DNA of 64,000 nt, from positions 33,541 through 97,540 of the forward strand of contig CAZGZD010000001.1 in assembly GCA_964530005.1 (NCBI GenBank), in the 5' to 3' direction. Positions 10,993-51,408 of this stretch are shown here, piece after piece. Both the position numbers and the translations under genes were made by a program. This DNA comes from an uncultured Gammaproteobacteria bacterium (lineage in GTDB: Bacteria; Patescibacteriota; Microgenomatia; UBA1406; GWC2-37-13). Positions within the stretch are counted from its first letter, which is position 1, and the number at the start of each line of letters is the position of its first letter. The notes beneath the pieces were generated by a model that was given only the letters and a program-made list of their open reading frames with translations, did not search any database and had not been told where the DNA came from.

Positions 10993-11706
10993 ATGTCTTT
11001 ACCACCAAAAGAGGGACCTAAAATACCTCCTATAGCCCCCGGCACTGTTGATCGTCCTATAAGTAAGCCTGCAGCACCACCTGATCTTGAAGCAGTAAGA
11101 CTTGCTGGTGGCATTAATCAAGCTCTTGATAGTCAATCTACAGTTGATCCAGATAGTCTTATTTCTGGTGTAGCAGACTCTACTGCAACGCGGGTAGATA
11201 CAGGAAGTACTAAAAGTCCGACTTCTGGTGACGAAGAATTTCTCAAAAACGGCGATATTCTAAATTACAACCCATTTAATCGATTAGATCGGGGTTTTCA
11301 AGACCTTCAACAGTTCGATAGAAAACACAGACAATTAATAGAGGAAATGACAAGTCGGGGTGAACCAATAGATCCCGCATTTGAGGAAAGACAGAATCTC
11401 ATCAGGGCCCAATTTGTAGCTGCGCTTGAAGTAGCAAGGAAAGAGGCGCCATCACCCCTTATTGAATCAGACCAAATTCCGTCTAGATTTGACTCAATAA
11501 GATTTGATCTTATTGGAGGAAATTGGTTCATAAAAGGAGATATGAGAGAGGTCGCAACCGCAATCTTAAGATATTCAGGAGATCAAATAAGATTTGAGCC
11601 AAACTCTGGTCCAGAAGGTGGAATTAAAGTCGTTGGTCAAAATCCAGGTGATGTAGCTGATATGGCTGGTGACCTTGCAAGACTAACTCTTCTATCTAAA
11701 GAGTAA
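10993..11706 (+). CDS. Hypothetical protein with a proline-rich N-terminus
   Basis: The ATG at 10993 lies inside TTG-initiated ORF 10957..11706. The protein begins MSLPPKEGPKIPPIAPGTVDRP and has no Sec signal. Confidence 0.6.
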   Translation: MSLPPKEGPKIPPIAPGTVDRPISKPAAPPDLEAVRLAGGINQALDSQSTVDPDSLISGVADSTATRVDTGSTKSPTSGDEEFLKNGDILNYNPFNRLDRGFQDLQQFDRKHRQLIEEMTSRGEPIDPAFEERQNLIRAQFVAALEVARKEAPSPLIESDQIPSRFDSIRFDLIGGNWFIKGDMREVATAILRYSGDQIRFEPNSGPEGGIKVVGQNPGDVADMAGDLARLTLLSKE

Positions 11707-11784
11707 GCAGCCTGTAGCTCCAGCAGAAACCCCTTGAGGATATTTATCTAAAAGATGTAGAGCTTTTTCCTTTATCTCACTTCA

Positions 11785-11814
11785 TTGACAACTCTACAAA
11801 ACTACACTTATAAT
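11785..11814 (+). promoter_or_regulatory. Consensus promoter TTGACA, 18-nt spacer, TATAAT, placed for a leaderless mRNA
   Basis: -35 at 11785-11790 and -10 at 11809-11814. ATG codons at 11820 and 11823 lie 6-9 nt after the -10. Confidence 0.6.
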
Positions 11815-11819
11815 GAATA

Positions 11820-12146
11820 ATGATGGCAATAACTGATGAATATATAAAGCAAATAAAGGTTGATTTTCTTCATCAGCTATCCGAACTTTTACGGACTGGG
11901 AATATGCCACTTGAGAATGCACGTGATATCTGCCGACAATTTAAGACATACAATCCATTCACGACATTTGAAGATCTCAAAACCAAAATCAAAGCATTCA
12001 CTCAAAAATATACTGAATTTGGCAAGATGTATACTAAGATTCTACGAGATGAGGAAAAGTATCGCACAAGTACTGTGCTTACTAAGATGCAGAGCCTCAT
12101 CGGCACTGGCAATATAGATCAAGCATTACAAGTAGCCAAAACATAA
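11820..12146 (+). CDS. Small helical hypothetical protein, first gene of a duplicated two-gene module
   Basis: 108 aa. Its stop is 3 nt before the next ATG. In size and position it parallels 44463..44906. Confidence 0.6.
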   Translation: MMAITDEYIKQIKVDFLHQLSELLRTGNMPLENARDICRQFKTYNPFTTFEDLKTKIKAFTQKYTEFGKMYTKILRDEEKYRTSTVLTKMQSLIGTGNIDQALQVAKT

Positions 12147-12149
12147 TTT

Positions 12150-13253
12150 ATGTCATCTATCATTGCGGCTCGACCAGGCATTGACACCCCTCCAGGAGCA
12201 GGTGTACCAAAGGAAGGAGCCCCCCCACCCCCAATTGGAGGTCCAAGGCCGGAGAGTACGCCTCCCACTGCGTCTGATTTTGGTGTTGAGACGACTCGAA
12301 CCCCTGCTGAACGGGCTAAAGACCAAGTAAAAGTAGCAGATGCAATTCTAGATGCTGTAAGAGATGACCCTAGTGGTGTGATTGATGTTTTGGCACATGG
12401 AGGAGCAACACCGATTAGTACTGAAGGTGTCAGTACAAAACCTGATACAAGAAAAGTGGCTGATCTTGAGACAGAACGTGCTGAAATTGCAAAAAGATAC
12501 AAAGATGGAAAACACACAGCTGATGACATATTTAGATTATCAGAAATTGATTCAGAGATTAAAGTTGCAAATAGTGCAGATGAATCTCGACCAGCTGCTA
12601 CAGACGAATCTACTCGATCAACACCTGCAGAAACCACAACGGCAGAACGAACCTCTCCATTATCGGAACTAAATAAAAGAATAGATGAGCTAACCGACAA
12701 AAAAAAGCTCACACCGGATGAAAAAACAGAACTAACTCAACTGGTTGCAGTCAAAGGAGAATATCAAAAAAGCATGTCGAATGAATTTATGGGTGCTTTA
12801 AAAAACTTAGGAGTAAATGGCTTAACCGAGCTCTCTATTGATCTTGTCAGATATTATATAACTCAGTATCCAGCAGGCTCAAAAGAACGCGTCGCTATGG
12901 AGCAAGCTCTCTCTACACTCAATCAAAAAAAAGCCATACAAGAAGCGGCCGGTACATATACCATATCAGATGAGGAAAAAGCCGCCTTACTCAAAGCAAA
13001 GGCTGACTATAACGAACTTGATGATAGCCAACGAGGTTCTTGGGCGGCATTTTTACTTGCTAATCAAGAAAAACAGTATAAAGATGGATCGAATGAACAA
13101 AAAACTCTGCACAGAGCCACCAGTATTCTTGAAAATAAAAAAAGTCACAGGATGGCTAAAGCTCTTGGAGTTTTGGGCCTTGCTGGTATTCTTGTAGCAC
13201 TAATTGCTCGAATGGCAAATAAAGCAAACTCTGGTGGTCAACAACAGGGTTAG
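12150..13253 (+). CDS. Pro-rich-N-terminus, coiled-coil, C-terminally tail-anchored membrane protein
   Basis: 367 aa. The N-terminus is ...TPPGAGVPKEGAPPPPIGGPRPESTPP and an internal motif reads DDPSGVIDVLAHGG. The C-terminus GVLGLAGILVALIARMANKANSGGQQQG is a single terminal TM plus a basic/Q-rich tail. Confidence 0.7.
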   Translation: MSSIIAARPGIDTPPGAGVPKEGAPPPPIGGPRPESTPPTASDFGVETTRTPAERAKDQVKVADAILDAVRDDPSGVIDVLAHGGATPISTEGVSTKPDTRKVADLETERAEIAKRYKDGKHTADDIFRLSEIDSEIKVANSADESRPAATDESTRSTPAETTTAERTSPLSELNKRIDELTDKKKLTPDEKTELTQLVAVKGEYQKSMSNEFMGALKNLGVNGLTELSIDLVRYYITQYPAGSKERVAMEQALSTLNQKKAIQEAAGTYTISDEEKAALLKAKADYNELDDSQRGSWAAFLLANQEKQYKDGSNEQKTLHRATSILENKKSHRMAKALGVLGLAGILVALIARMANKANSGGQQQG

Positions 13254-13271
13254 TGTGAGAAGACTTACACT
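13252..13271. terminator. Hairpin between convergent genes (possible bidirectional terminator)
   Basis: Stem agtgtga / ttacact (7 bp including one G:U pair) with a 6-nt loop. It overlaps both stop codons and has no U-tract. Confidence 0.3.
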
Positions 13272-13537: not shown

Positions 13538-13555
13538 AACGTATATTTTAGAAGT

Positions 13556-13996: not shown

Positions 13997-14113
13997 AAGT
14001 TCTATGTTAACAGTAGCTACTGGGGTAAGTCAAGTTCAATTTAAAGCAACTTACTTTTCAACCAAACCTTTCTATAAACTTATAGACTACTATTACAAGC
14101 CATATACATCAAC

Positions 14114-15334
14114 CTATGCTTGTGTAAGTTGGCGCTCAACAACAGTCATCCCAAACTCTTTCGCTTTACTCCTAACTGTTTGCATTATATTGCCAATTGT
14201 TTCGTCTGATATTCCCAATTCTCGTCCACTTGAATAAGCCTCATTAAGCTGAAAATCTGGTTCTTCCGGATTCTCGTTGAGCGTTCTACGAAGTGCAGCT
14301 GTAAAACGATCTATATTAGCAGTTGCACTCTTCATTTTACCCTCATCTCTACTTTTAAGTGCACTTGACGCCGCCTCTCGCAACGCTTTCTTAAGAGGAT
14401 CCCCACCCAATACCATCGAACTTAAGTGATCATCTTGGATATCATGACCATAATATCCTATTTCGCCAACTGACACAGGATACTGACCCTCGGCAAAAGC
14501 CTGAAGGTAATCTGAATACTCCAACTTTCCTTTTTCCACCTCACCTCGTCGACCTGTAAGTAGCTTTATTTTTACTCCCAATTTTGCCGCAGCTTTTTTA
14601 ATTGTTTCAGGAGTGGGGACACCCACAATACGATATCCGTAATCAAATCCATCAATTACAACATGCTTTATTGCATACCCCAATTTTCCCATGAGAATAT
14701 GAGCATCGCCTGTGTGCAAATTTATAGATGCTCCATAAAATGCATCAATGTTTATTGACATTCCATCCGGTGTAGCGGTTGCGATTATTTTTCTCTCCGA
14801 ATTACTTCCACGATCTTTTATCACAAATTCTCCCTCTGGTATCTTGTCTAATGCTTGAGGGATCAGCATTGCCCGTTGTAAAAATACCTCAGCTTCTAAA
14901 CCCTGCGCATCAGGCGAACCAATCGGATCAATCCCTTCAGGCAAATCAGTTTCATATACCTTGTCGCCGATCATTATCTCTCGATTTATCTTCTCAGTCT
15001 GAGATTCTACTGTCGAAAAATCAGCGGGCTTCCTTGTTGTAGCTTCTTGTAACGCGACTTCTGCGGCCTCAGTATCTGGGGCTTTTGCCATATTAGACGG
15101 CGATGCTTCCAGACCCTCCTCGGGTGTGGGAGTCCGCACCTCAACTGGTTGACCTTCGCCTGCTAATATATCTATTACAGCATCTGGATCATGCTCTCCC
15201 CGCTTAAGTAGCCGATCTGCCAACATTCTCAAACGTCCTCGAATACCTGGAGATTGTTCAGTAGATGGTGGTGCTGGCTCGCGGGTAGGAAGTGGTGCAG
15301 TTTCTGATCGTGGAATTACAGGTACTTCTGGCAT
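14114..15334 (-). CDS. Hypothetical protein with an MPEVP Pro-rich N-terminus and a DPDAVIDILAGEG motif
   Basis: 406-aa ORF beginning MPEVPVIPRSETAPLPTREPAPP. It has no Sec signal and I recognise no catalytic family. Confidence 0.65.
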   Translation of the reverse strand: MPEVPVIPRSETAPLPTREPAPPSTEQSPGIRGRLRMLADRLLKRGEHDPDAVIDILAGEGQPVEVRTPTPEEGLEASPSNMAKAPDTEAAEVALQEATTRKPADFSTVESQTEKINREIMIGDKVYETDLPEGIDPIGSPDAQGLEAEVFLQRAMLIPQALDKIPEGEFVIKDRGSNSERKIIATATPDGMSINIDAFYGASINLHTGDAHILMGKLGYAIKHVVIDGFDYGYRIVGVPTPETIKKAAAKLGVKIKLLTGRRGEVEKGKLEYSDYLQAFAEGQYPVSVGEIGYYGHDIQDDHLSSMVLGGDPLKKALREAASSALKSRDEGKMKSATANIDRFTAALRRTLNENPEEPDFQLNEAYSSGRELGISDETIGNIMQTVRSKAKEFGMTVVERQLTQA

Positions 15335-15417
15335 GGGTTGATTTGGGGTAACTGAGGAACCTAGACTTAATTATGAAGAAGCTGGGAAGGTTAGTCAACC
15401 TGAATTTTATAATCCAG

Positions 15418-16323
15418 CTATACTGGTCCAACCAGTTGCGCTGGAGAATTGCGGTATTTGGTTTTGGTATTCGTCTCGAACATATGCCATGCAGAGTGAC
15501 CAGGCTTATTCTTTGCAGCTGACTTAAATACAAACACATCTCCCACTCCACCTGTTTCTTCATGCCAGGTTGGACTGATAAATCGGGTATCTACCTTTTC
15601 TTCAACAAGACCCTCTAAGATAGCTTTACCTAAATCTGTGTATTTTAGTGTAGTTAGAGATTCATCTTCGCCTGGATTTGCAAAGGTTGCTTTGAACTCA
15701 CCTTCAGTCGTCGTATGAATATTTACCAACCCCTCCCCATCTTGCAACAAAAATGCTAGAGACGAACTATCTCTATGCCAGCCTAAATCATTTTTCGTAC
15801 CCCGAACCCTCACATTTGCAGCCTCTTTATGGCTTTTAATTACCCGACTATCATCCTGAGCCTGTAGGTGCCTGATAATAAACTTTCGAACAGCCTCCAC
15901 CTTCTGCTCTGGAGTCATTGACGCATAATCTTCTCCTTCATCAAGTTGCAGCTTGGAACCATCAATCTTAAAACCAGGTATTTCATCAGCTTTCAATTTT
16001 AGCAATGCCTGATCAAGCTCTTCTCCATTGGTCACCACCTCCATATCTACTCGACGTGCCTCAACCAATCTGAGGTGCTCTGCACTCTTGTCTGATAGAT
16101 GTGACTTGTCAAAAGGCTGCGTGTCTGATGTCTTAGCACCTCCTCCTAGCGCTGAGATAGTAGCATCAGGGTCTTGAGAAGCTCTTAGTCTCAACTTATC
16201 TGCAAACTTTCTCCATATTCCTCTTCTTGCAATAGCTTGTTTACCTTGTGGTGATTGCTGAGTACGATCAACAGTTTTTCTCACAATCTCTTTTGAAGGG
16301 TGCGGATGTGGGGCTTCTGGCAT
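15418..16323 (-). CDS. Hypothetical protein with an MPEAP Pro-rich N-terminus and a DPDATISALGGG motif
   Basis: I prefer the ATG at 16323 to the TTG at 16341 used by the ORF track. That start gives MPEAPHPHPSKE, parallel to the neighbouring gene. Confidence 0.6.
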   Translation of the reverse strand: MPEAPHPHPSKEIVRKTVDRTQQSPQGKQAIARRGIWRKFADKLRLRASQDPDATISALGGGAKTSDTQPFDKSHLSDKSAEHLRLVEARRVDMEVVTNGEELDQALLKLKADEIPGFKIDGSKLQLDEGEDYASMTPEQKVEAVRKFIIRHLQAQDDSRVIKSHKEAANVRVRGTKNDLGWHRDSSSLAFLLQDGEGLVNIHTTTEGEFKATFANPGEDESLTTLKYTDLGKAILEGLVEEKVDTRFISPTWHEETGGVGDVFVFKSAAKNKPGHSAWHMFETNTKTKYRNSPAQLVGPV

Positions 16324-16354
16324 AGACTTAGTATGAAGCAAGCTAAACTAAGAA

Positions 16355-17131: not shown

Positions 17132-17161
17132 GTGAATAGTATAGCAGCAATCGAGATAGTT

Positions 17162-26113: not shown

Positions 26114-26332
26114 ATGTCGGACTCACTCAAAAGAAGCGCAAAAGTATCACTCTCCGATCTTCCAGATCTGATGACGATTCGAGAGGTAGCAGATCTCCTG
26201 CGTGTATCCCCACTTACCATAAAGCGCTGGGGCAAGCGCGGCAAGCTTCCGGCAATTCGTATCAACTCCCGTGGCGACCGTCGCTACAAAAAAGAGGTCG
26301 TCGAACGACTCCTAGGTGTAGAGCAAGAATAA
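26114..26332 (+). CDS. Excisionase/MerR-like helix-turn-helix DNA-binding protein
   Basis: 72 aa. MTIREVADLLRVSPLTIKRWGKRGKLPAIRI fits the HTH_17/excisionase-type motif. Confidence 0.8.
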   Translation: MSDSLKRSAKVSLSDLPDLMTIREVADLLRVSPLTIKRWGKRGKLPAIRINSRGDRRYKKEVVERLLGVEQE

Positions 26333-26373
26333 AGCCTCCATACTCAATTCTGCTTTAAATTAATCCTATAATA

Positions 26374-26382
26374 TGCTATAAT
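26374..26382 (+). promoter_or_regulatory. Extended -10 promoter TGcTATAAT
   Basis: TG at 26374-26375 and TATAAT at 26377-26382. The ATG at 26388 lies 5 nt after the -10, so the mRNA is probably leaderless. Confidence 0.5.
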
Positions 26383-26387
26383 TCCGC

Positions 26388-29387: not shown

Positions 29388-29391
29388 TTCC

Positions 29392-40100: not shown

Positions 40101-42308
40101 TCTCTCTTGCGTGTATTGCTCATTAAATTGATTTACCCTGTCGGTGAAAACCCTCGTCTGATCTGGTGTCAAGGAACCTCGCACTTGATCTACAAACTGT
40201 TCAAGCCGCAGTTGCTCTTGCTCAAGTACCGTAGATCCACCATATTGAATAAGCCCAATACCTTGTTCGTGTCCGAAATTGAGTCGGGATTCAATCTCAG
40301 CCGCCCGATCAAGTATCTGTTCTGCCGTAAGACCATCGAGTGTCAAAAGATCCTCTACTGAGCGCAGAGGAATCTGAAATCTCTCCATACGCTCTCGACG
40401 ATGAGAATTGGGTGCTACTTCGCCTCCCATCTGTCGCTGTGCTCCGTGCATCCATCTATCTCCTGATACTTCGCGGCCGCGACGAACAGCCGCAATAAGT
40501 GCACCAGATATTGTCCCCACGCCTGGAGCTGCCATACTTGCTGCACGAAGTGCCGTGCCGGGTAGCCGAAGTACACCCGCTGTCACAATTGCAAGCCCTG
40601 CGCCAACAAGCGCGGGATTGGCGGCATTCTGCCCACCTCGTGTGCGACGAATACGAATCACTTGTCGATCTACCCAACTCAATCTGGCTTGAGAATCATA
40701 TGCCCAATCGGCATTGGCAAGATTTATCGTGATCTGGTCTCGCCTATGATCAAGATAATCAAGGGCTGCTTGATGCTCTGATGCTGTAGCACGTATCTGT
40801 TGTCCCATCTCATATATATCAGTTGCAAAAAGGCTCGCCATACTTGCAAACTCATTGGCATCTCTACCAAAAAGAGCAGCAATATCTGCATTATCCTGAT
40901 TGTTGGCAACAAAATCGCGAATACGTTCCTGTACTTGGGCTGGCTCGGTGATCGTCCCATCTACAATAGGTCGTAGAATTTGCTCAATGAGCGCATCTTT
41001 TAGCGGGCCTTGGGCTTGTCTGAGGTCTTCACCTGTTCGAAGCCTTCCTCCTGTAAGATGCCCTATCTTAGCTGCGCTGGCTGCCTCAAAGTCTCCTCGC
41101 TGCGCGTCGACCTCTGCAACCTCTAAATTACTTCTTACTCCCCGATTGACCATCTGCATGGTGAGATACGAGGTATTGTTCTCAATCATAGCTCCACGTA
41201 CCTGAAAGTAAAATTTATTTTCATAGTAATCTTCGCCCAGGCGGAATTTGATACGACGGAAAAATCGTCGAGTGCGACCACGACTGCCTAGTATAGGGGT
41301 GGTGAGTTCATCCTGTACGGCTTCCTTTGCCATGAGACGAGATCTTTTTTCAACATCGATCTCGCGACTTGCAAGCGTACCCTCAACTCGAAGGTCTTCA
41401 ATAGAAGGAGGCACTGGTTCCAGATCAATGGGCTCAATGGGTGGCGATCCAGGCTCATGCGGGGGAGGAATCCCAGGACTTGGGGTTGGAGTAGGAGCTG
41501 GAGGAGCTGGTGGAATTTCCGGGGGCTCAATTGGCATTGGAACTCCCGGACTCCCGGGTGGAAGTGGTGCAACAGGCGGGGCTCCGGGCACATCAGGCGG
41601 CGGCGGTCCAGCTGGTGGTGGAACTGGAACCCCAGGCCCACCAGGAACTACTGGTCGGACAGGAGGTGCGGGCGGTGGTGGAACATCGGGTGGGGGCGGG
41701 GGCGCTATTTTTTTCTCTGGAGGAAGAAAAAGCTCTTTTCTTTTATTTATCATACCAGCCGCGATAACCTGGAGTTCATCATCTGTAAGTGGATGGCCAT
41801 ATTCTTCTTCAAGTCGGGCCATAACCGCATCATTTGCACGGATATCAGCCATCTCAACATAGATACGGGAAGTGTACTTATTGGGATCTTTTAGACGTCT
41901 GCGCTCATACTCTTTTCTATTTTGAATAAGTACATCTTTATAGTGCTCATACTTATCAAGCTCTAAAGCGTCCAATTCTTCAGAATTAATCCTCTCGTCA
42001 AGATACGTCACAATATCATCAACAGGCGCTCTCTCATCTATGCTGTAGACCAAATCACTGTCTTCTCGATGATCGACAAATCGGCGTCTTGTACGTCCTC
42101 TATTCTTGTCGATGGTTTTCTCTTTGAGTCTTTTGAGTGTCTCCTGACCATGAAGTTCACGAGCACTTAATGTGGCAGGATCTGCTGCCAAAAATATTTG
42201 AGCTCCCTCGTTAAATGCGCGAAGGACTTCTGCCCGCTCATAAGCAGGTGCGGCTTCTGGCCGGCGTAATGGTGGAGTTCCTTCAACTGGTGAGGGCCCG
42301 TCTGGCAT
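31104..42308 (-). CDS. Giant multidomain protein (3734 aa). It has a Pro-rich N-terminus, a polyproline tract, possible membrane hairpins, a GT9 heptosyltransferase-like domain, three PP2C-type modules (the middle one degenerate) and a duplicated C-terminal domain.
   Basis: A single uninterrupted 11.2-kb ORF with recognisable domain motifs along its whole length (see the sub-features below). Opposite-strand ORFs are low-complexity shadows. Confidence 0.9.
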   Translation of the reverse strand: MPDGPSPVEGTPPLRRPEAAPAYERAEVLRAFNEGAQIFLAADPATLSARELHGQETLKRLKEKTIDKNRGRTRRRFVDHREDSDLVYSIDERAPVDDIVTYLDERINSEELDALELDKYEHYKDVLIQNRKEYERRRLKDPNKYTSRIYVEMADIRANDAVMARLEEEYGHPLTDDELQVIAAGMINKRKELFLPPEKKIAPPPPPDVPPPPAPPVRPVVPGGPGVPVPPPAGPPPPDVPGAPPVAPLPPGSPGVPMPIEPPEIPPAPPAPTPTPSPGIPPPHEPGSPPIEPIDLEPVPPSIEDLRVEGTLASREIDVEKRSRLMAKEAVQDELTTPILGSRGRTRRFFRRIKFRLGEDYYENKFYFQVRGAMIENNTSYLTMQMVNRGVRSNLEVAEVDAQRGDFEAASAAKIGHLTGGRLRTGEDLRQAQGPLKDALIEQILRPIVDGTITEPAQVQERIRDFVANNQDNADIAALFGRDANEFASMASLFATDIYEMGQQIRATASEHQAALDYLDHRRDQITINLANADWAYDSQARLSWVDRQVIRIRRTRGGQNAANPALVGAGLAIVTAGVLRLPGTALRAASMAAPGVGTISGALIAAVRRGREVSGDRWMHGAQRQMGGEVAPNSHRRERMERFQIPLRSVEDLLTLDGLTAEQILDRAAEIESRLNFGHEQGIGLIQYGGSTVLEQEQLRLEQFVDQVRGSLTPDQTRVFTDRVNQFNEQYTQERTQADRAFRRYRRGSVALAGAVGGIAGLGVGVGMQQAAQHVVEALHQAGPPRDTLLQQRLNELFMGHKGENNTVRLTSNIEGRHNWASNEIGFYNRITGEKLGPNTGLPGMPAHEEVPYFKLMHNGHLLAGRGFHENTQLGREVRDELLREGWTIRHGDQLIPEYFGNGIERGHMVTQLIDGHKVHMLKGTELVQHGDKWDWVNASDHDRVILRDIRIKDGVITQWDHRSLGGSAFQIQDPHYHWGDNSIHFHEPRHETILNLRPTPPMELIPPGAEAPAGIPYIPIIPVPFYPRFALEPLQEAQEQITYFNYGDFSVDRYRGPEGKPKRIADFVEGGGALESADGERLLAELHSAFMATDDVYIVLSGAIGDTVLSTAYVDGITKLLRSRGADKNVTIVAPSNVHKLLEPFVQNLDIQLETTKRYEGVERSMELIRSKGIQNAVVFEFDHHSAQPRVARSDNNTIIASDLFSSSVGLYDYDRAGDDRFSQYLAELLSISPPSLVHARPRIDLPANADEMYQELVDKYKIDSSKKQVGIVIEASLTAKRYSLDQWKQVIEKIRADQPDTEVNIFINTKGSYSKEELERVFGGIENARFITGDMAQNSVLLKHQDLVLSNDTGFAHIAAVVEGGPQVISLHIPEFTPNVWISSASRHQGLLPDPKDTTGKFDYDEKDEAKKWINKIRSEVVSQAALDILRRIDTGEIPPAPVRPTTPSTPLTRTPPEPTPGTPTEAPASIPLETEPGRDIFVSIEKTLADVVGAEARIEFTEENLNEFAKKPIDEKLKEKGLDEMKDGKVRIDGDRLIIEGSIEGHGLIRGGKTTLVDVQYKTDDHNMLVPTKKELTFKGRHSLVKDQISAQLDSVHSGLATYINGKISGGWVVEGFIVKDGRASVMFRNSTIPPTPIPPTPTPAPTTPPPPIPEPTETAAPEPAAPPEPAASESSPAPEPAVPPTPEPPTPAPSEPPAPPAEPTPAEPLVPTPVEPPAAPEPTPTPAAADADVTVAPPPPPEPTETVVPEPTAPTEPSTPPSEPSVIDTGDASVTDITPTTRRERIRVRREEKARRKPGAREEAPSSSTEAPATVETTEGAKDARDRVESGEMGPYLWAAGTDKGRVRKNNQDQFTQTRLNDLGESLFILADGMGGHRGGAEASGIATKKVREEYTALRISGMAEEEALRVAIERANEAVYQEGQSNPDLRGMGTTVVAAVLKDDGSYLLANVGDSRGYTIGEMTAVSQITKDHSVAQELADMGRITQEEAYTHERSSTLTRAIGHKPTVDVDIFPGKLNDEAHLLLTSDGLWASTRHDPTTEIWRFAVMSDTPKDMVRSAIMAANEAGGADNTTIVIVKKLSSTPTITTPPSQTSHEATATTGETPRDTVPATPLSEPVEQTETAIPESTVPPVVPVTPSTTAGDADAIVVPPPPAVAAPIVETPVTIRTGATPSTDEAGSVAPAESTVSGADGATVVELEPEAQPSPEASKAIVHVLPRGELAAPTLTPDAKEVLVEIERSRVGSYGETSPGHETVTLNDGFPELKGQPEDARALRVTSEKSHEGHASVYKIESAKNHPDRQEVVVAQDSVRGFTAMFDSGERNPDLPRQQEIATKAADVTTRILTQLPANPSEAQIERAYLQIQAEIGRELALIPNIIGADQEPRMSIGGTVVQLYTRVVNGEEVPSAVIMHLGTGAAYARTGQGELRQITQDDDQLRLDLMQGKITRKQYEYYRKQLDTNTRQGQLRSYLPSRTENARDYFTQRRLLGMFFGAELSPSIHNVDLTPQDSEILIMSRGIKLNLTQDTVKRLSGAGVGEGYGDDPAYLADMIIREAREVAGKNALRSAPDDDLAVATMRIASDGTQPESSHTGSEQSPELAKERVLPVDRVLTQDWDSDLLTQIWQKSIHKPEGDSVARFKDTVHLTDAELAQLDRFVAQARNLHMVFAANEPLWSVFQSVVEEAEGINMTNVNSSEVYIYPNSDPKSNEIRKITAGSSKAAVMVPERVYELYRWEQIIAEVAGTVADYRGELEVPKNPKEFADEINAVNQFIKDSQESLESFRGQGVNLEADVVLDPDLEEAVIVRTENPRESSAATVDQTSEAASRRSTEFNVEDLGGDDLIEGDTGTTGTPADTSSAEADADINRFHTEPGVTPASVTETPATIRTDREPAGDGATFFDQDTAEVSDRRTSDKELKKILRKLEKKGKKSRLRTGVSMAKGVAGKVTRSVRNLGRVGDDVIHRPTEAASTVDEFILTDRIKAFKLNDRPNAEEIDWGWQGPYIVVSGTEQGEQQANQDRVKVLRLDTYGQTVLIAADGVGRHSGGERASQITVDTISEHYSAAKDAGLSSEEALREAVRTTQKHIELANRDEGIDGASTLVVVVLNDDGSYIGANLGDSRAYKVSAGSAEQLTTDAHEVDVDGVALLSKCLGFKSPDTNPEFFNGKLDDIEQIVLTTDGLWDGIEKPYHEVIQELVTRDIAPRDVVSRLIGYSVLSKEGIANMSAVAAKYIAPRTEDTIAVEATAPVATHMPASPDEEMPVSPLVAEPVVPAESTISIPESPLTVEDRTATVNELVTDPDHKYSHGILGRFAGGPMGHGVVFTDGQAAGIIESALTGEQVWSIAFVDEEKNGPEFNARIIGLSTKKGESVFVVTFNDRQGDSRGHSHTDYAIVLPAEDSSRLNPILAKDPSILLDVFKAKYPEYDRSERRRDGHVNRPLQIDPEYPNIQTISESVLERSYGLREHFKSLNLPKADKKEIVTPQPASAEGAPTAAEATVDLGEEVEIKIPGKNVHGKLPAGTYVGETSGGKVPKEVTARSEGHFSDHGPDWLNYVRDGRVDTVNEVLNDVYKARKRLSELVDQQYVRIMPSTVEGNKILRMEFFQDDKAPDSRAEGTFTPAYVEYEMSEVELNKLLGAVRENPDALEELYQAAFPTLDYKPGERMGMRRTPARGFYIIPEGTEAPRYTWKDLDDRDAKIREFFAGLEHYDYQHGPYGTGERFEPQI
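32590..33285 (-). other. PP2C-type module 3
   Basis: QQANQDRV, LIAADGVGRHSGGERAS, GASTLVVVVL, NLGDSRAY and IVLTTDGLWD. The final DN motif reads GIANMSAV (Asp to Ala). Confidence 0.7.
34545..35385 (-). other. PP2C-like module 2 with degenerate catalytic motifs (probable pseudophosphatase)
   Basis: It is colinear with PP2C but reads AMFDSGERN, GGTVVQLY, HLGTGAAYA (in place of GDSR), ILIMSRGI (in place of SDG) and DDDLAVATMRI. Confidence 0.5.
36050..36797 (-). other. PP2C-type Ser/Thr phosphatase module 1 (motifs intact)
   Basis: RKNNQDQF, ILADGMGGHRGGAEAS, GMGTTVVAAVL, NVGDSRGY, ITKDHS, LLLTSDGLW and GGADNTTIVIV. Confidence 0.85.
36985..37410 (-). repeat. P/T/E/A-rich linker containing a ~45-nt imperfect direct repeat
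   Basis: The DNA gtttcagttggttcagg...ggcggaggagg occurs at about 37041-37088 and again at 37306-37352. These encode APPPPPEPTETVVPEP and TPPPPIPEPTETAAPEP. Confidence 0.7.
38125..39025 (-). other. Glycosyltransferase family 9 (ADP-heptose-type heptosyltransferase-like) domain of the giant protein
   Basis: VYIVLSGAIGDTVLSTAYVDGITKLL...VGIVIEASLTAKRYSLDQWKQVIEKI...LVLSNDTGFAHIAAVVEGGPQVISL. The N-terminal xGD motif, the central K/R-x-W motif and the DTGxxH motif fit GT9. Confidence 0.7.
41410..41725 (-). other. Polyproline (FH1-like) tract of the giant protein
   Basis: IAPPPPPDVPPPPAPPVRPVVPGGPGVPVPPPAGPPPPDVPGAPPVAPLPPGSPGVP...PPIEP. Coordinates were located through the reverse complement around 41701-41740. 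Confidence 0.8.
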
Positions 42309-42323: not shown

Positions 42324-42755
42324 TTAATTTACAATCTTCTGATTCTTCGCAATATATTTATCCACAGTCATTCCGGTATTACTTGGCTTATTTCTTTCTA
42401 ATACTACACCGCGAAGATATGTATCGCGAAAATCTCCGAAAAGATCTGTAAAGACTTGCTGAGCGTCAGGCAATTTATCCTGAAGAAACTTCTCAACTTC
42501 AGCCTGCGGCTTACCATCTTCATTCATCTTTACGAACTCTTCGACATATTCATCTGGTAATCTATCTACAATAACGGAAATGATATAGCTATCAAGGCGC
42601 ACAAATAGCTCCTTTATCATCTCCTCATGACTCGCCTCATCAAGAGTCACCGCACCGGCGTCGACGAGGATGCTCTCAAGATACGCACGAACATCTGGGG
42701 TAATCTCCAGAGGTTTTTTCTCTGCAGCTTGGGCTGCTTGTTGTACATCTGCCAT
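42324..42755 (-). CDS. DUF5663-like small helical protein
   Basis: 143 aa. The pattern EEMIKELFVRLDSYIISVIVDRLPDEYVEEFVKMNEDGKPQAEVEKFLQDKLPDAQQVF resembles the Patescibacteria DUF5663 family. This is recalled, not searched. Confidence 0.5.
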   Translation of the reverse strand: MADVQQAAQAAEKKPLEITPDVRAYLESILVDAGAVTLDEASHEEMIKELFVRLDSYIISVIVDRLPDEYVEEFVKMNEDGKPQAEVEKFLQDKLPDAQQVFTDLFGDFRDTYLRGVVLERNKPSNTGMTVDKYIAKNQKIVN

Positions 42756-42783: not shown

Positions 42784-44460
42784 TTACTGTCCTGTGCCTT
42801 GCTGACCTTTATTCCTTTTCCCTGCTGAGCGTGCCAGCATAATAAGACCAACAGATCCCATACTAAAAATGATAAGTAGCATCTTTCCTATTTTTTTGCC
42901 CTTCTCAAAATATGCAGCTCGCTTAAGTTGGCGTTTGATTAATTTGACTAAGTCAGGATGCATCAGCTCCTTCTCATCCACTTGCTTGAAAAAAGATTTT
43001 CGAGCTTTCTTATCATTTGCAAGCTCTGTAAACGAGTCTATTAGGTTGCCAAGCGAATTTTTTCCACCGCTGACTCCAAAAATTGCAGCAAGTGCATCTA
43101 GGTCATTATCCGTAATATGTGGCATTCCCTCAATATTTTGAGGTTCTGCCTTGTCATCCATCTTTACCTTACCAGTCTTTCTTTGCTCGACAAGATTTTC
43201 CTCTTCACTAGATAGATCTTCAAGCTTTTTCTGTTTATTCTTAAACTGGTCTATCTCTTGCTGGATTCTCTTATTCTCTGCTATATTGGCAGCAGAATCT
43301 GCAGGAAGCAATTCTGGTTCGCTATGCGGCGCTTGCTTACCAATTTGGGTAATATTCCACCTTATATATCCAATCTCAAGCTCCAAAGCACTAGCAATAA
43401 GACGCGGGTTATTCTCAGCAATCCCTCTTTTCTTCATTTCCCTCGCTTGCTCTTTGATAAAGGTTGCAGGTTTTCTCTCCGCTGCAACTTTGGCAATAAT
43501 CATAAGCTCATCTCGAGCAAAGTCCGGCTTATATCCCTCCTCAAGTATTTTTTTCTTAAACTCTATCCCTAACCTTTTCAAATCATCTTCTTCTTGCCGC
43601 TCACGATCCGCCACTTCTTTGGACTTGTAAGACAGTGGAGTTGCGCGGCTTATTGCATGATTCAAGTCGTCAAGATCTTGCTGCTCTACGTCACTAAGCT
43701 TCTCACCCGCATCCCACTTATTCATAAGAGTATTCCATAGCGCACGATCTTCATCGGATAGGCCTGATACGATCAGCTTTGCGAAGCCTTCGGCGTCATT
43801 GATATCAGTCGGCTGAGTCTCCTGCTTATATTCTCCCTCAACTACTTCAAATAATTTTGGATCCTCACGATCTATAAATTCTTCGCGCGGATTGACATTT
43901 TCGATACCGCTTTTGTGTAATTTGGCCAAATGCTCTCGATATACTTGAGTACCCATGTATTTCCCGAGAGCTTGATCTTTGCGTCTGCTTCTCAACTCTG
44001 CGGCATATTCGCGCTCTTCTTGATCTGATTTGAACTGCCCCGTCTGTTTTCGCCTCAACTGGCTTCTAAGATCCTCGCGTATCTGTTGACTATATGCATT
44101 CTTAAACTCGCTTGAGAACTCAATATTTACAATCACATCACCTGTGTTGACTACATCTGGGATTGCGTGTGGAGGTGGTGCTGGGGAGTCGGGAGAGTCA
44201 TACCAAAGCCCTCCATCCACAGGCACAATATTTGGAGCATCACCATGGTCTGTGGCATCTTTGGTTTTAGTTCTCCTGAGTACTTCGTCAAGCTCCGGGA
44301 ATTTTTCCCTACTTGGATCGATTCCTAATTCATGCACAGGCTGCTCCACGATACCAACAGTTATCTGATCATCCACTGCGAGTTGACTTGGTTCCTGAGG
44401 AGTAATATCCGCTGGCTTTGGGCGTGGTCTGTCGACTTCTAAGGTATCCATATTTTTCAT
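42784..44460 (-). CDS. Pro-rich-N-terminus, coiled-coil, C-terminally tail-anchored membrane protein (paralog of 12150..13253)
   Basis: I prefer the ATG at 44460 (MKNMDTLEVDRPRPKPADITPQEP) to the TTG at 44466. The C-terminus is MLLIIFSMGSVGLIMLARSAGKRNKGQQGTGQ. Confidence 0.7.
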   Translation of the reverse strand: MKNMDTLEVDRPRPKPADITPQEPSQLAVDDQITVGIVEQPVHELGIDPSREKFPELDEVLRRTKTKDATDHGDAPNIVPVDGGLWYDSPDSPAPPPHAIPDVVNTGDVIVNIEFSSEFKNAYSQQIREDLRSQLRRKQTGQFKSDQEEREYAAELRSRRKDQALGKYMGTQVYREHLAKLHKSGIENVNPREEFIDREDPKLFEVVEGEYKQETQPTDINDAEGFAKLIVSGLSDEDRALWNTLMNKWDAGEKLSDVEQQDLDDLNHAISRATPLSYKSKEVADRERQEEDDLKRLGIEFKKKILEEGYKPDFARDELMIIAKVAAERKPATFIKEQAREMKKRGIAENNPRLIASALELEIGYIRWNITQIGKQAPHSEPELLPADSAANIAENKRIQQEIDQFKNKQKKLEDLSSEEENLVEQRKTGKVKMDDKAEPQNIEGMPHITDNDLDALAAIFGVSGGKNSLGNLIDSFTELANDKKARKSFFKQVDEKELMHPDLVKLIKRQLKRAAYFEKGKKIGKMLLIIFSMGSVGLIMLARSAGKRNKGQQGTGQ

Positions 44461-49936: not shown

Positions 49937-49943
49937 ATCAGAA

Positions 49944-50645
49944 TCACTTCTCGATTATTTTTTTGATTTCATCCGCTACCTCATCTTGTCGATTTATCAA
50001 TGTGTGACCCTCACCTTTTATCACAATCGACTTGAAGTCTTTTAAAAGAGATAAATCCACATATGGATCATATTGACCCGTGATAAATACGATTTTGTCG
50101 CGAATACTCGCCATAGTTCGCCAATCATCTCGGAGTATCACGCCAACAAATGCCTCATGCACAGTATCAGCTCGATGTCTGAACCAGTCGCGATATGTAG
50201 GGTAATCTCTATATCGAAAGATTATCGCATACAGTAGAATCGGAATCATGATAAGCCAGTGTAGGCGAACTAAAAGTAATCCAAGAAAAGTAGGTCGAAC
50301 ATAAAGCCGTCCTAATGGTCGCAAACTCAACATATATCGCATCATCTTCGCGTCGCGCTGCATCGGATATCCAATAAGTATGAGTTTTTCGATCAGCTCG
50401 GGGTGAGCCAGTGCAAACTCCTTGGCAAGTATCGCTCCCATTGAGTGTCCGACGAGAATACATTTCTGCCTTATCTTACTCTCCAAAAATGCTACGTATC
50501 GCTCTGTCGTAAAAGGCCCCAGCTCGTGCTCAAGCTCGCCATAACCTGGAAGATCAAATGCATCAGTATCTGGAAAATGTTTGCGGATATTGCGGAAGTT
50601 GTTCTTGGACCCACATAGACCGTGGATAAAAACAATTTTAGTCAT
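49944..50645 (-). CDS. Alpha/beta hydrolase
   Basis: KIVFIHGL and the nucleophile elbow GHSMGA. Confidence 0.75.
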   Translation of the reverse strand: MTKIVFIHGLCGSKNNFRNIRKHFPDTDAFDLPGYGELEHELGPFTTERYVAFLESKIRQKCILVGHSMGAILAKEFALAHPELIEKLILIGYPMQRDAKMMRYMLSLRPLGRLYVRPTFLGLLLVRLHWLIMIPILLYAIIFRYRDYPTYRDWFRHRADTVHEAFVGVILRDDWRTMASIRDKIVFITGQYDPYVDLSLLKDFKSIVIKGEGHTLINRQDEVADEIKKIIEK

Positions 50646-50689
50646 GTTTATAATTGTATATTACAACCCGTATGTAATGCCGCCTTAGG

Positions 50690-50703
50690 TTTTGTATAAT
50701 TAG
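50690..50703 (+). promoter_or_regulatory. -10 TATAAT within the 14-mer ttttgtataattag, shared with 53258-53271
   Basis: TATAAT at 50695-50700. The ATG at 50707 lies 6 nt downstream, so the mRNA is probably leaderless. Confidence 0.45.
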
Positions 50704-50706
50704 ATT

Positions 50707-51408
50707 ATGCCAGAAGGCCAACCACCATCATTAGTAGAACACCGGATCCAGCCACGACAAGTTCTGCTTGATTTTGGCCAGGAATTAGTTAGGGAGATTT
50801 CAGCTTTTTATCACACAGAAATGGGTCATGTGCCATTATCGGTGGGACTTGAAGATAAACCTCAGCTCGTAGAACTCCTTTTCGCCGCAAATCTTCCTCA
50901 TATTGTTTCGCACAGCGATGTTCCTATGCCCCCTTCAGATGCTAGCGCAAAAGCAATAGTCCAACATCATCTGCAATCTCATGATGGTTATCGTCTTGAC
51001 TCATTAGTTAGTGATTTTTCAGGAATTAGCGGAGCGCAATTGCTGCTGCAGCGACCAGGTAGAGGTACCATATATGAAAGTGTTCAGGTCCAAGTAGCTG
51101 CACTTCAAGGGCAAGTTACTTTCCGTCGAGCAATTCCAAAAATAGGAGTTGAGACAGTAATCTTATCAGAAGTGGATGATTTGATAGAAATGAGAAGAGA
51201 AAAAAGAAAAGTTGATGAACGTGTAAGAGAAACTGCAAGATGGGGTGAAGCTCAGTCTGGCTCCTTCCCATTACATATTCAGTATCTTCTCGAGGGTAAG
51301 GGCTTGCAAGTTGAGTCTTTTCCCCCTTTAACGGTAGATCCCCACGACAAGGAATTTTATCGTAAGATCTTTGAATATCTTGATCATGCAACAAAAATCA
51401 AATCTTAA
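50707..51408 (+). CDS. Hypothetical protein beginning MPEGQPPS
   Basis: 233-aa ORF. I recognise no family, but the N-terminus matches the MP[ED]xP pattern seen in the accessory loci. Confidence 0.55.
   Translation: MPEGQPPSLVEHRIQPRQVLLDFGQELVREISAFYHTEMGHVPLSVGLEDKPQLVELLFAANLPHIVSHSDVPMPPSDASAKAIVQHHLQSHDGYRLDSLVSDFSGISGAQLLLQRPGRGTIYESVQVQVAALQGQVTFRRAIPKIGVETVILSEVDDLIEMRREKRKVDERVRETARWGEAQSGSFPLHIQYLLEGKGLQVESFPPLTVDPHDKEFYRKIFEYLDHATKIKS

What the first reader, a model, noticed from the sequence alone, without database searches (positions are those of the whole stretch)
10993..51408. Shared proline-rich N-termini, four starting MP[ED]xP, on about ten signal-less proteins
The starts read from the sequence are:
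- MPEVPVIPRSETAPLP (start at 15334).
- MPEAPHPHPSKE (start at 16323).
- MPDGPSPVEGTPPLRRPEAAP (start at 42308).
- MPEGQPPSLVEH (start at 50707).
- MSLPPKEGPKIPPIAP (start at 10993).
- MSSIIAARPGIDTPPGAGVPKEGAPPPP (start at 12150).
- MAGPTIPDIPTYRPPEAAPP (start at 27945).
- MPPRPDNRPPP (alternative start at 31056).
- ...DRPRPKPADITPQEP (gene starting at 44460).

Housekeeping proteins in the window do not start this way. A common unstructured Pro-rich leader on otherwise unrelated proteins looks like a targeting or secretion signal, or a shared docking peptide. An orphan VirD4-like coupling ATPase sits next to the first group.
Basis: seen in the sequence. Interest (0 to 1): 0.7.

Follow-up and report, generated by a model that had tools for sequence, protein, structure and literature searches.

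The report
Proline-rich N-terminal tails, CPR accessory proteins
A small uncultured bacterium of the Candidate Phyla Radiation puts short, floppy, proline-rich tails on the front of about nine non-essential proteins; the pattern is real and restricted to this lineage, but the tails have several separate origins and nothing links them to the neighbouring secretion-type ATPase.

Summary
Six of 56 genes have at least 7 prolines in their first 30 residues, against 0.05 expected (P about 1e-11). No housekeeping gene does, nor do 20 flanking genes of the same genome or 167 ORFs from ten other Roizmanbacteria loci.

Most of the starts are sound:
- The organism lacks Shine-Dalgarno sites and has -10 boxes 5-9 nt before the ATG, so its mRNAs look leaderless.
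- A, B, E and G have no alternative start before the tail ends.
- E orthologues at 81% and 55% identity keep a proline-rich but divergent tail.

Corrections to the finding:
- Only three proteins match MP[ED]xP; the fourth reads MPEGQPP.
- H and I are weak cases, and the start of F is ambiguous.
- The proteins are not all unrelated. A-D weakly share an N-terminal module.
- The MPD start of G is inherited from a large CPR family of giant proteins; 18% of its representatives start MP[ED].

The leader is therefore a convergent feature with at least four origins.

The VirD4 link is not supported. That ATPase is a conserved core gene, and its neighbours elsewhere lack such tails. Several carriers look cytoplasmic or membrane-anchored.

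My best guess, at low confidence, is a disordered polyproline tag read by a lineage-specific partner. A non-classical export signal is not excluded.

The parts
10993..11706 (+). Protein A (237 aa). The tail is aa 1-31 (nt 10993-11085) with 10 Pro in the first 30 aa. A helix and a 'DPDSLISGVAD' motif follow.
   Evidence: Translation. TATATT -10 box 6 nt before the ATG. No alternative start before codon 119. No Pfam, NCBIfam, PHROG or PADLOC hit.
11820..12146 (+). Protein M (108 aa). A small helical protein encoded immediately upstream of B. The M-B pair is kept in the related contig L019.
   Evidence: M is 37% identical to its L019 counterpart M19, and B follows 3 nt after the stop of M. TATAAT box 5 nt before the ATG.
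12150..13253 (+). Protein B (367 aa). The tail is aa 1-41 (nt 12150-12272) with 8 Pro in the first 30 aa, including PPPP. Then a helix, 'DPSGVIDVLAHGG', a coiled-coil-like body, a C-terminal TM at aa 334-359 and a GQQ tail.
   Evidence: The L019 counterpart starts MPEAPVAPPPRPDAGPPPPPPGKPPG (14 Pro in 30 aa) and is 40% identical only over aa 72-139.
14114..15334 (-). Protein C (406 aa). Starts MPEVPVIPRSETAPLPTREPAPPS. The tail is aa 1-30 (nt 15245-15334) with 9 Pro. Then an Arg-rich amphipathic helix and 'DPDAVIDILAGEG'.
   Evidence: The exact protein is on 14 public contigs, with the same start called. No homologue found by the word-based search. In the single-sequence AF2 model aa 1-30 are coil, with helices at 31-45 and 50-57; the whole model is low-confidence (pLDDT 43).
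15418..16323 (-). Protein D (301 aa). Starts MPEAPHPHPSKE. The tail is aa 1-26 (nt 16246-16323) with 5 Pro. Then a basic helix and 'DPDATISALGGG'.
   Evidence: CATACT box 6 nt before the ATG. C-D blastp 6e-5.
27945..29387 (+). Protein E (480 aa). The tail is aa 1-25 (nt 27945-28019) with 8 Pro. Then an inositol-monophosphatase-family domain (aa 26-287) and an RfaE-II/cytidylyltransferase-like nucleotidyltransferase (aa 325-479).
   Evidence: Pfam and NCBIfam. No alternative start before codon 59, which lies inside the domain. Full-length orthologues have 9 and 8 Pro at 81% and 55% identity, and 5, 5 and 2 Pro at about 41%. The 114 other, mostly single-domain, IMPase hits average 0.86.
29392..31083 (-). 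Protein F (563 aa). The tail is aa 1-33 (nt 30985-31083) and contains MPPRPDNRPPPK. The body has kinase-like motifs (GRRFIVKR, VGFLE, YNRRPHNxMM, IDHGGA). The start is ambiguous.
   Evidence: Alignment with the L021 and L023 homologues. No PDB sequence hit. Alternative ATGs at codons 10 and 32, with an SD-like element before codon 32. The kinase-like reading comes from motif inspection only.
31104..42308 (-). Protein G (3734 aa).
- Leader: aa 1-22, MPDGPSPVEGTPPLRRPEAAPA (nt 42243-42308).
- Helical N-domain: aa 23-195.
- Poly-Pro stretch: aa 197-300 (nt 41409-41720).
- Hydrophobic segments: aa 562-584 and 749-769.
- Junction motif: about aa 1016-1036.
- GT9: aa 1264-1366.
- PP2C: aa 1883-2043 and 3021-3200.
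   Evidence: Pfam, sequence, hydrophobicity. The family has 320 representatives. Its consensus starts M-P-E, and 25 of 139 representatives start MP[ED].
42784..44460 (-). Protein H (558 aa). The tail is aa 1-26 (nt 44383-44460), ...DRPRPKPADITPQEP, with 5 Pro; a weak case. C-terminal TM at aa 523-547 and a GQQ tail like that of B.
   Evidence: The start lies 2 nt after the stop of upstream gene L (44463-44906), so the two form an operon.
50707..51408 (+). Protein I (233 aa). Starts MPEGQPPSLVEH, with 4 Pro in the first 30 aa. It is the weakest case and stands alone between housekeeping genes.
   Evidence: Perfect TGTATAAT box 6 nt before the ATG. No family hit.
8656..10818 (+). VirD4/TrwB-like coupling-type ATPase (720 aa, with an N-terminal DUF8128). 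It is a conserved core gene and is not part of the feature.
   Evidence: Pfam. 7,893 homologues, 66-70% identical in Roizmanbacteria. Its downstream neighbours differ in relatives.
26114..27872 (+). HTH_17/excisionase-type small regulator (26114-26332) and protein J (26388-27872, 494 aa, no Pro tail). They open the conserved HTH-J-E-F gene block.
   Evidence: NCBIfam. The same synteny is found in L021/L022.
42324..42755 (-). Protein K (143 aa, near-threshold DUF5663 match) between G and H.
   Evidence: Pfam E 1.6e-4, 22.6 bits against a cut-off of 23.7.

Best explanation
The segments are genuine, translated, intrinsically disordered N-terminal tails. They are about 20-45 aa long, 25-35% proline and acidic, and they often begin Met-Pro-Glu/Asp. 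They sit on lineage-specific accessory proteins of a Roizmanbacteria-like CPR bacterium whose mRNAs are mostly leaderless.

They are not one homologous leader. They arose, or became proline-enriched, at least four times: in the A-D module family, in the tail of the E enzyme family, in the MPE leader of the G giant-protein family, and in F/H/I.

Proline content rises in several unrelated families in this one lineage only. I therefore infer that the tails are polyproline-II 'arms' carrying short linear motifs (MPExP, RP[PDE], PxxP) that a lineage-specific partner recognises.

Several carriers are predicted to act at the cytoplasmic face of the membrane:
- E is a nucleotide-sugar-type enzyme.
- G carries GT9 and PP2C domains and has two clear TM segments.
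- B and H are tail-anchored.

The most likely outcome of recognition is therefore docking or co-assembly of these proteins, not Sec, Tat or T4SS export.

Shown: the tails exist, are translated, are enriched, are lineage-restricted and have several origins. Inferred: that a common reader exists and that the result is docking.
For: - Enrichment and N-terminal position specificity.
- Absence from 47 other window genes, 20 flanking genes and 167 ORFs of other Roizmanbacteria.
- Recurrence in the related contig L019 on proteins that are otherwise unalignable or barely alignable: MPEAP... with 14 Pro in 30 aa, and MPEEP... on a 1507-aa protein.
- E orthologues keep the composition while the sequence diverges, and Pro content rises with relatedness to the window: 8, 9 and 8 Pro against 5, 5 and 2.
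- The starts are supported by -10 boxes 5-6 nt upstream for A, D and I, and by the lack of alternative starts for A, B, E and G.
- Independent origins.
- Cytoplasm-type domains and C-terminal anchors.
- 5' mRNA folding does not differ from other genes, which argues against a purely RNA-level cause.
Against: - No candidate reader domain (SH3, WW, GYF or EVH1-like) was found in the window.
- Outside the A-D group no sequence motif beyond composition is statistically established, and even there the support is weak.
- The G-family leader is only mildly Pro-rich in most members (median 3 Pro), so Pro-richness as such may not be its conserved feature.
- The topology of G is uncertain: two clear hydrophobic segments, possibly a third.
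- Fast-evolving proteins commonly have disordered tails with no specific function.
- Only about 84 kb of the genome was examined.
Confidence: 0.35

Rival explanations
1. The tails are a non-classical N-terminal export or translocation leader. They would mark substrates, including the giant polymorphic G protein, for a CPR-specific secretion route to the cell surface or into the host.
For: - The carriers lack Sec/Tat signals and are fast-evolving accessory proteins in variable genome slots: VirD4-like 98% identical against M 37% and B 40% over 70 aa.
- The G family has the layout of polymorphic toxins or effectors: a conserved N-terminal region of about 1000 aa, a conserved junction motif, then variable GT9, PP2C or kinase modules.
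- Phosphatase, kinase-like and poly-Pro FH1-like content resembles effector repertoires (general knowledge).
- The MP[ED] start is conserved in 18% of G-family representatives.
Against: - E, with its IMPase-type phosphatase and nucleotidyltransferase domains, together with the GT9 domain of G, suggests a cytoplasmic nucleotide-sugar pathway. This is inference from the domains.
- B and H are tail-anchored, with the N-terminus predicted inside the cell.
- No secretion apparatus is encoded nearby, and VirD4 synteny with such proteins is not conserved.
- Known T4SS signals are C-terminal (general knowledge).
- The leaders are not homologous to each other.
Confidence: 0.2
2. There is no shared function. 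These are ordinary disordered N-terminal extensions of rapidly evolving or recently acquired genes, and their proline richness is a by-product of lineage history such as paralogy, gene origin or relaxed constraint.
For: - A-D are probably paralogues, so four of the nine cases are not independent.
- The carrier genes share an unusual codon profile: GC3 0.22-0.39 against 0.40-0.53 for housekeeping genes, with high GC1. This fits a common foreign or young origin.
- G uses Pro-rich linkers throughout.
- Distant orthologues of E and F have variable tails with less proline.
Against: - Proline richness is kept in E orthologues at 81% and 55% identity while the residues change. That indicates selection on composition.
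- Enrichment is strictly N-terminal in 6 of 9 proteins.
- The MP[ED] start recurs in two unrelated families, far above the 1 of 167 seen in background ORFs.
Confidence: 0.25
3. The tails act as a translational throttle. Consecutive prolines close to the start of SD-less, leaderless mRNAs would make output depend on EF-P, co-regulating this gene set.
For: - Seven of nine tails contain at least one PP or PPP motif within the first 40 aa (sequences).
- The genome lacks SD sites: 2 of 56 genes have an SD-like 4-mer. RBS-based control is therefore unavailable.
- Polyproline stalling is known to be strongest near the start of an ORF (general knowledge).
Against: - D and H have no PP motif.
- PP pairs are expected by chance in any segment that is 30% proline.
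- This does not explain the MPE start or the acidic composition.
- No efp gene or expression data were examined.
Confidence: 0.07
4. The tails are acceptor sites for modification, either glycosylation by the GT9 domain of G using a sugar nucleotide made by J-E-F, or phosphorylation and dephosphorylation by F and the PP2C domains.
For: - The island encodes GT9, two PP2C domains, a kinase-like protein and a phosphatase plus nucleotidyltransferase enzyme.
- The tails are rich in Ser, Thr, Pro and Glu.
- Pro-rich Ser/Thr segments are typical O-glycosylation sites in other bacteria (general knowledge).
Against: This rests on circumstantial co-location only. A-D and I lie outside that island. No protein-heptosyltransferase signature was tested.
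Confidence: 0.08
5. The tails are an annotation artefact, and the true starts lie downstream of the Pro-rich stretches.
For: C has ATG/TTG codons at positions 35-38. F has ATGs at codons 10 and 32, with an SD-like element before codon 32. I has an ATG at codon 39.
Against: - A, B, E and G have no usable downstream start before codons 119, 77, 59 and 40.
- The IMPase domain of E begins at about aa 26.
- G-family alignments extend to residues 4-17 of the query.
- -10 boxes sit 5-6 nt before the ATGs of A, D and I.
- Independent gene callers chose the same starts for A, B, C and D.
Confidence: 0.05

Closest known systems
Proline-rich intrinsically disordered regions carrying short linear motifs (PxxP / polyproline-II ligands)
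   Same: The composition is 25-35% Pro with flanking charged residues. No structure is predicted, although that comes from a low-confidence model. The sequence turns over fast while the composition is conserved.
   Different: The tails are strictly N-terminal and begin at residue 2 with Pro-Glu/Asp. They are concentrated on about 9 accessory proteins of one CPR lineage. No SH3- or WW-type reader domain was identified.
N-terminal trafficking domains of polymorphic toxins or effectors (LXG, PE/PPE and similar substrates of specialised secretion)
   Same: A shared N-terminal element sits on proteins with unrelated C-terminal parts. The G family combines a conserved N-terminal region with variable enzymatic C-terminal modules behind a conserved junction motif. 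The genes are hypervariable and sit in variable slots.
   Different: No WXG, LXG or YxxxD/E helical hairpin family was detected; only non-significant Pfam hits at E 0.09-0.12. No EssC/EccC-type apparatus is present. The leaders are not homologous across carriers. No immunity gene was identified.
Type IV secretion substrates recognised by a VirD4 coupling protein
   Same: A VirD4/TrwB-family ATPase is encoded 175 nt upstream of the first carrier gene.
   Different: Known T4SS signals are C-terminal or internal (general knowledge). The ATPase is a conserved core gene whose neighbours in relatives lack such tails. Most patescibacterial VirD4 homologues lie away from virB4, and the gene was not essential in the one cultivated epibiont tested (PMC12102498).
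Fpg/Nei DNA glycosylases and other enzymes with a catalytic N-terminal proline (start MPELPEVE)
   Same: The same first five residues, M-P-E-x-P. A genuine Fpg-like ORF starting MPELPEVETLKL is in L007.
   Different: In Fpg the N-terminus is part of a folded domain. Here it is followed by 20-40 aa of low-complexity sequence, and no Fpg homology was detected.

Membership tests
Sec or Tat signal peptide | An N-terminal hydrophobic h-region, with a twin-arginine motif before it for Tat | tested here: not met
   The maximum Kyte-Doolittle mean over 12-mers in the first 40-50 aa is 1.3 or less in all nine proteins. D has 'ARRGIWRKF' but no h-region after it.
T4SS (VirB/VirD4) substrate | A C-terminal or internal translocation signal (charged C-terminus, BID, XVIPCD) | tested here: not met
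   The shared feature is N-terminal. No such domain was found by Pfam or NCBIfam.
T4SS (VirB/VirD4) substrate | Genetic linkage to a T4SS apparatus and its coupling protein | tested here: not met
   Only a VirD4-like gene is present, with no VirB4, B6, B8 or pilin in the window. In nine relatives the VirD4-like gene has different neighbours without Pro tails. See also PMC12102498.
T4SS (VirB/VirD4) substrate | Coupling-protein-dependent translocation | not testable with these tools
   This needs secretion assays.
T7SS substrates (WXG100 / LXG / PE-PPE) | A helix-turn-helix N-domain with a WXG or YxxxD/E motif, and an FtsK-type EssC/EccC ATPase | tested here: not met
   There is no significant Pfam match. 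The only hits are TPR_23 (EspA-like) at E 0.09 and EccA1_N at E 0.12. No EssC-like gene is in the window.
Polymorphic toxin/effector architecture (applies to G only) | A conserved N-terminal region with variable C-terminal enzymatic modules after a conserved junction | tested here: met
   The family has 320 representatives. GT9 is found in 8 of 25 scanned members, PP2C in 4 of 25 and Pkinase in 2 of 25. The junction P-I-I-P-I-P-F-A-P-R-H-P-L-E matches a strict pattern in 31 of 150 members.
Polymorphic toxin/effector architecture (applies to G only) | A cognate immunity gene downstream, and toxicity of the C-terminal module | not tested
   Downstream of G lie F and E, which are conserved enzymes. 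No immunity candidate was examined.
Proline-rich linear-motif docking tail | A disordered Pro-rich segment with its composition conserved across orthologues | tested here: met
   E orthologues have 8, 9 and 8 Pro in the first 30 aa at 100, 81 and 55% identity, with divergent sequence. The AF2 model of C has aa 1-30 as coil, but the model is low-confidence.
Proline-rich linear-motif docking tail | An identifiable reader domain or partner | tested here: not met
   No SH3, WW, GYF or EVH1-type domain was found in any window protein scanned. Much of G and of proteins A-D, H, I and J is unannotated, so a novel reader cannot be excluded.
Leaderless-mRNA genes (bears on start-codon validity) | A -10 box a few nt upstream of the ATG and no Shine-Dalgarno site | tested here: met
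   2 of 56 genes have an SD-like 4-mer. TATAAT-like boxes lie 5-9 nt before many ATGs, including those of A, D, I, J and M. Transcription start sites were not mapped.

The most novel reading that the evidence does not exclude
The MP[ED]-initiated, proline-rich acidic tail is the recognition element of a so-far undescribed, Sec-independent export or host-translocation route in Microgenomates-type CPR bacteria. Its cargo would include a large family of giant polymorphic multi-enzyme proteins (GT9, PP2C or kinase modules behind a conserved PIIPIPFAPRHPLE junction), together with small lineage-specific effectors (A-D) and tail-anchored partners (B, H).
Probability: 0.15. Interest if true: 0.85.

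Novelty: new variant of a known kind. Interest (0 to 1): 0.5.

Why it matters
CPR/Patescibacteria make up a large share of bacterial diversity and live attached to other cells. The patescibacterial T4SS survey I read (PMC12102498) names no substrates or secretion signals, and my paper searches found none described.

A compact N-terminal tag shared by the fast-evolving accessory proteins of one lineage would give a handle for finding their interaction proteins. This holds whether the tag acts as a docking peptide or as an export signal. Candidates could be picked out by motif, and the giant G family, with 320 representative clusters, could be tested directly.

If the tails turn out to be plain disordered extensions, two results still stand. 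The 'orphan VirD4' is an ordinary conserved gene. This genome uses leaderless, SD-less initiation, which matters for calling starts in such genomes.

Tried and rejected
- Homologues of C: the word-based search found only C itself.
- Metagenome scan with the M/M19 alignment: one spurious 2-kb locus.
- DNA-level repeats among the 5' regions: nothing beyond the 10-mer ATGCCAGAAG. The tails are therefore not a duplicated cassette.
- HMM of the helix plus DP motif against all six-frame ORFs of the window and nine loci: only its training members scored. G, H, K, L and M did not.
- Leave-one-out HMMs: weak support only.
- My visual impression that M, L, K and the G N-domain share the 'helix-DP-helix' motif with A-D: not supported.
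- PHROGs, PADLOC and phage tblastn: no phage or defence link.
- PDB sequence searches with F alone and with its family profile: nothing. The kinase-like reading of F rests on motifs only.
- Single-sequence AF2 model of C: pLDDT 43, too poor for a fold search.
- RNA-level explanation, that the tails give an unstructured 5' end to leaderless mRNAs: rejected. Folding energies of the first 60 nt do not differ (P = 0.35).
- tRNA and Rfam scans: no integration-site evidence for the 26-45 kb island.
- Literature searches for a proline-rich signal in Patescibacteria: nothing relevant.

Full report
**Organism and context**

The window is 42-48% GC. Its VirD4-like protein (8656-10818) has 7,893 homologues. 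The best are 66-70% identical and several are named Candidatus Roizmanbacteria or Patescibacteria. The window therefore comes from a Roizmanbacteria-like member of the Candidate Phyla Radiation. Proteins identical to those in the window occur on many public metagenome contigs.

Only 2 of 56 genes have a Shine-Dalgarno-like 4-mer upstream. Many genes have a TATAAT-like box 5-9 nt before the ATG. Most mRNAs are thus probably leaderless, although transcription start sites were not mapped.

**The observation**

All nine quoted N-termini are in the sequence as stated. The proline frequency is 0.053 over 56 genes.

| Threshold in first 30 aa | Genes observed | Expected | P |
|---|---|---|---|
| 7 or more Pro | 6 | 0.046 | about 1e-11 |
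| 5 or more Pro | 8 | 1.1 | about 1.5e-5 |

- In A, B, C, D, E and F the N-terminus is the most Pro-rich 30-aa window of the whole protein.
- In G, H and I it is not. G has a poly-Pro stretch at aa 197-300 and long Pro/Thr linkers.
- No other window gene exceeds 3 Pro.
- None of 20 further genes of the same genome, just outside the window, is Pro-rich.
- 0 of 167 ORFs in ten loci from other Roizmanbacteria-like genomes reach 7 Pro.
- None of the nine has an N-terminal hydrophobic segment.

Details that need correction:
- Only C, D and G match MP[ED]xP. I reads MPEGQPP.
- H and I are marginal cases.
- All four window genes with Pro at position 2 have Glu or Asp at position 3.

**Are the tails translated?**

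- For A, B, E and G the next possible start lies at codon 119, 77, 59 and 40 respectively.
- In E, codon 59 is inside the inositol-monophosphatase domain, which starts at about aa 26.
- A, D and I have a -10 box exactly 6 nt before the ATG.
- Independent gene callers chose the same starts for A, B, C and D.
- Full-length E orthologues at 81% and 55% identity have 9 and 8 prolines in their first 30 aa but different residues. Orthologues at about 41% identity have 5, 5 and 2.
- The 114 other, mostly single-domain, IMPase hits average 0.86 Pro. Several of them are named Nitrosospira or Nitrosovibrio, at about 44% identity.
- G-family alignments reach residues 4-17 of the query.
- F is the exception. 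It has ATGs at codons 1, 10 and 32, an SD-like GGGGGAG before codon 32, and family conservation starting at aa 34.
- C and I also have a possible downstream start, at codons 35-38 and 39.

**One leader or several?**

There is no DNA repeat among the 5' regions beyond ATGCCAGAAG.

A-D show weak protein similarity over the first 60-90 aa. The pattern is a Pro-rich stretch, then a basic amphipathic helix, then 'DPxxhIxxLxGG'. The blastp values are 1e-4 for B-C and 6e-5 for C-D. Leave-one-out HMMs recover D (0.0034) and C (0.028). A is recovered only at a non-significant 0.22, and B is not recovered.

A related contig, L019, has a VirD4-like protein 98% identical to the window's. It carries:
- an M-B pair in which B' starts MPEAPVAPPPRPDAGPPPPPPGKPPG;
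- a 1507-aa protein starting MPEEPAAIDRPPKKAPEVP in place of C and D.

On that contig M is only 37% identical, and B is 40% identical over 70 aa.

The first 1200 aa of G hit 320 representative clusters at E of 1e-3 or better, 91 of them at 1e-30 or better. The listed hits are mostly 1200-2900 aa long.
- The family consensus begins M-P-E.
- 25 of 139 representatives that start with Met and exceed 900 aa begin MP[ED].
- Their leaders are only mildly Pro-rich, with a median of 3 Pro.

A profile of the G-family N-domain finds G (5e-28) but none of A-D, and hhalign gives nothing. F and its homologues in L021 and L023 each have a variable, Pro-containing N-tail.

The 'shared leader' is therefore a convergent compositional feature with at least four origins, and it is intensified in this lineage.

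**What the carriers are**

| Protein | Content |
|---|---|
| E | IMPase-family phosphatase fused to an RfaE-II/cytidylyltransferase-like nucleotidyltransferase |
| G | GT9 domain, two PP2C domains, two clear hydrophobic segments |
| F | Kinase-like motifs, no database match |
| B, H | C-terminal TM anchor with a similar GQQ tail |
| A, C, D, I, J | No match in Pfam, NCBIfam, PHROGs or PADLOC |

The block HTH-J-E-F is conserved in another genome, L021/L022. In L023, E and F lie next to GT9 proteins. I infer that this island is a nucleotide-sugar and glycosyltransfer module.

The carrier genes have low GC3 (0.22-0.39) and high GC1 compared with housekeeping genes.

**The VirD4 idea**

The VirD4-like gene and the roughly 1000-aa polytopic membrane protein upstream of it form a conserved pair in relatives. 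Downstream of the pair, other genomes have YtxH, a tRNA-synthetase fragment, kinases and other genes, none with Pro-rich starts. A-B and C-D occupy variable slots between conserved genes. No other T4SS gene is in the window.

A published survey found 5,713 VirD4-like proteins in 2,918 Patescibacteria genomes. Only 148 lay near virB4. The gene was not essential in the cultivated epibiont, and the authors raise exaptation (PMC12102498).

**Mechanism**

RNA structure at the 5' end does not distinguish these genes (P = 0.35).

The lineage-restricted rise of proline in several unrelated families, the conservation of composition in E, and the recurrent MP[ED] start together argue for selection on the peptide. 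Several carriers look cytoplasmic or anchored with the N-terminus inside the cell.

| Explanation | Confidence |
|---|---|
| Polyproline-II tag read by a lineage-specific partner, leading to docking | 0.35 |
| No common function | 0.25 |
| Non-classical export leader | 0.20 |
| Acceptor site for modification | 0.08 |
| EF-P-dependent translational throttle | 0.07 |
| Mis-called starts | 0.05 |

None of these can be settled with sequence alone. The decisive tests are listed under next steps.

**Verdict**

The feature is real and statistically robust, and it is heterogeneous in origin. It is a new variant of a familiar kind, the proline-rich disordered tail, and it is not a demonstrated signal. 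Interest is moderate. It would be high if the export reading proved right.

Noticed in passing
window 3628-4203 (+): A 64% GC ORF sits in a genome region of about 40-46% GC. It encodes a 191-aa protein with a lipobox (LLLSGC) and a Thr/Asp-rich linker. It looks like a lipoprotein gene acquired from a high-GC organism, possibly an actinobacterium. The related contig L019 also has a high-GC stretch at the equivalent place (2241-3215).
   Followed up: partly
whole window: Shine-Dalgarno sites are nearly absent (2 of 56 genes). TATAAT-like -10 boxes lie 5-9 nt upstream of many ATGs. This implies widespread leaderless or very short-leader mRNAs in this Roizmanbacteria-like genome.
   Followed up: partly
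window 31104-42308 (-), and proteins P0242-P0391: G belongs to a large family (320 representative clusters) of mostly 1200-2900-aa proteins. From the N-terminus they have an MPE-type leader, a helical domain, a Pro-rich linker, a conserved region of about 480 aa with hydrophobic segments, and a conserved junction (PIIPIPFAPRHPLEPL; aa about 1016-1036 in G). Variable C-terminal modules follow: GT9, PP2C, Ser/Thr kinase and others. The layout resembles polymorphic toxins or effectors.
   Followed up: partly
window 26114-31083; L021 7765-13092; L023 6130-13345: A conserved gene block runs HTH_17 regulator, J, E (IMPase-like plus nucleotidyltransferase), then F (kinase-like motifs). It is adjacent to GT9 proteins in L023 and to G here. 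It may be an undescribed nucleotide-sugar pathway feeding GT9 transferases.
   Followed up: partly
window 12150-13253 and 42784-44460; L019 11912-13048: B, H and the L019 counterpart of B are signal-less proteins. Each has a single C-terminal TM helix followed by a short basic tail rich in Gly, Gln and Asn (NKANSGGQQQG, GKRNKGQQGTGQ, AGNKTQG). Each is preceded by a small helical protein (M or L). They may be tail-anchored proteins or carry an unrecognised C-terminal sorting signal.
   Followed up: no
window 5385-19631 compared with L019: Divergence between the two genomes is mosaic.
- VirD4-like: 98% aa identity.
- GT2: 93%.
- The 88-aa protein: 86%.
- YtxH: 71%.
- The upstream 1082-aa membrane protein: about 30%.
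- M: 37%.
- B: 40% over 70 aa.
This suggests recombination or very uneven evolutionary rates.
   Followed up: no
window 21799-25857 (-): A cluster of N-terminally anchored surface proteins carries FN3/Pur_ac_phosph_N, two cohesin domains and a dockerin domain. It is syntenic in other Roizmanbacteria (L017, L021) and looks like a cellulosome-like surface assembly.
   Followed up: no
window 27945-29387 (+): Several of the closest single-domain relatives of E's IMPase domain that carry a name are from Nitrosospira or Nitrosovibrio (Nitrosomonadales), at about 44% identity. They score higher than most CPR proteins, hinting at inter-phylum transfer.
   Followed up: no
window 15334, 16323, 42308, 50707; L019 11912, 18354: All six MP[ED] starts use ATG CCA GA[A/G/C]. 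Five of the six read ATGCCAGA[AG]. Genome-wide, CCA is 41% of Pro codons and GAA 48% of Glu codons. This is a mild nucleotide-level bias at the 5' end of these probably leaderless genes.
   Followed up: partly
window 49058-49936 (+): A glutaredoxin domain (aa 3-55) is followed by a long Pro-rich C-terminal region; Pro makes up 15% of the protein beyond aa 30. Pro-rich segments in this genome are therefore not confined to N-termini.
   Followed up: no
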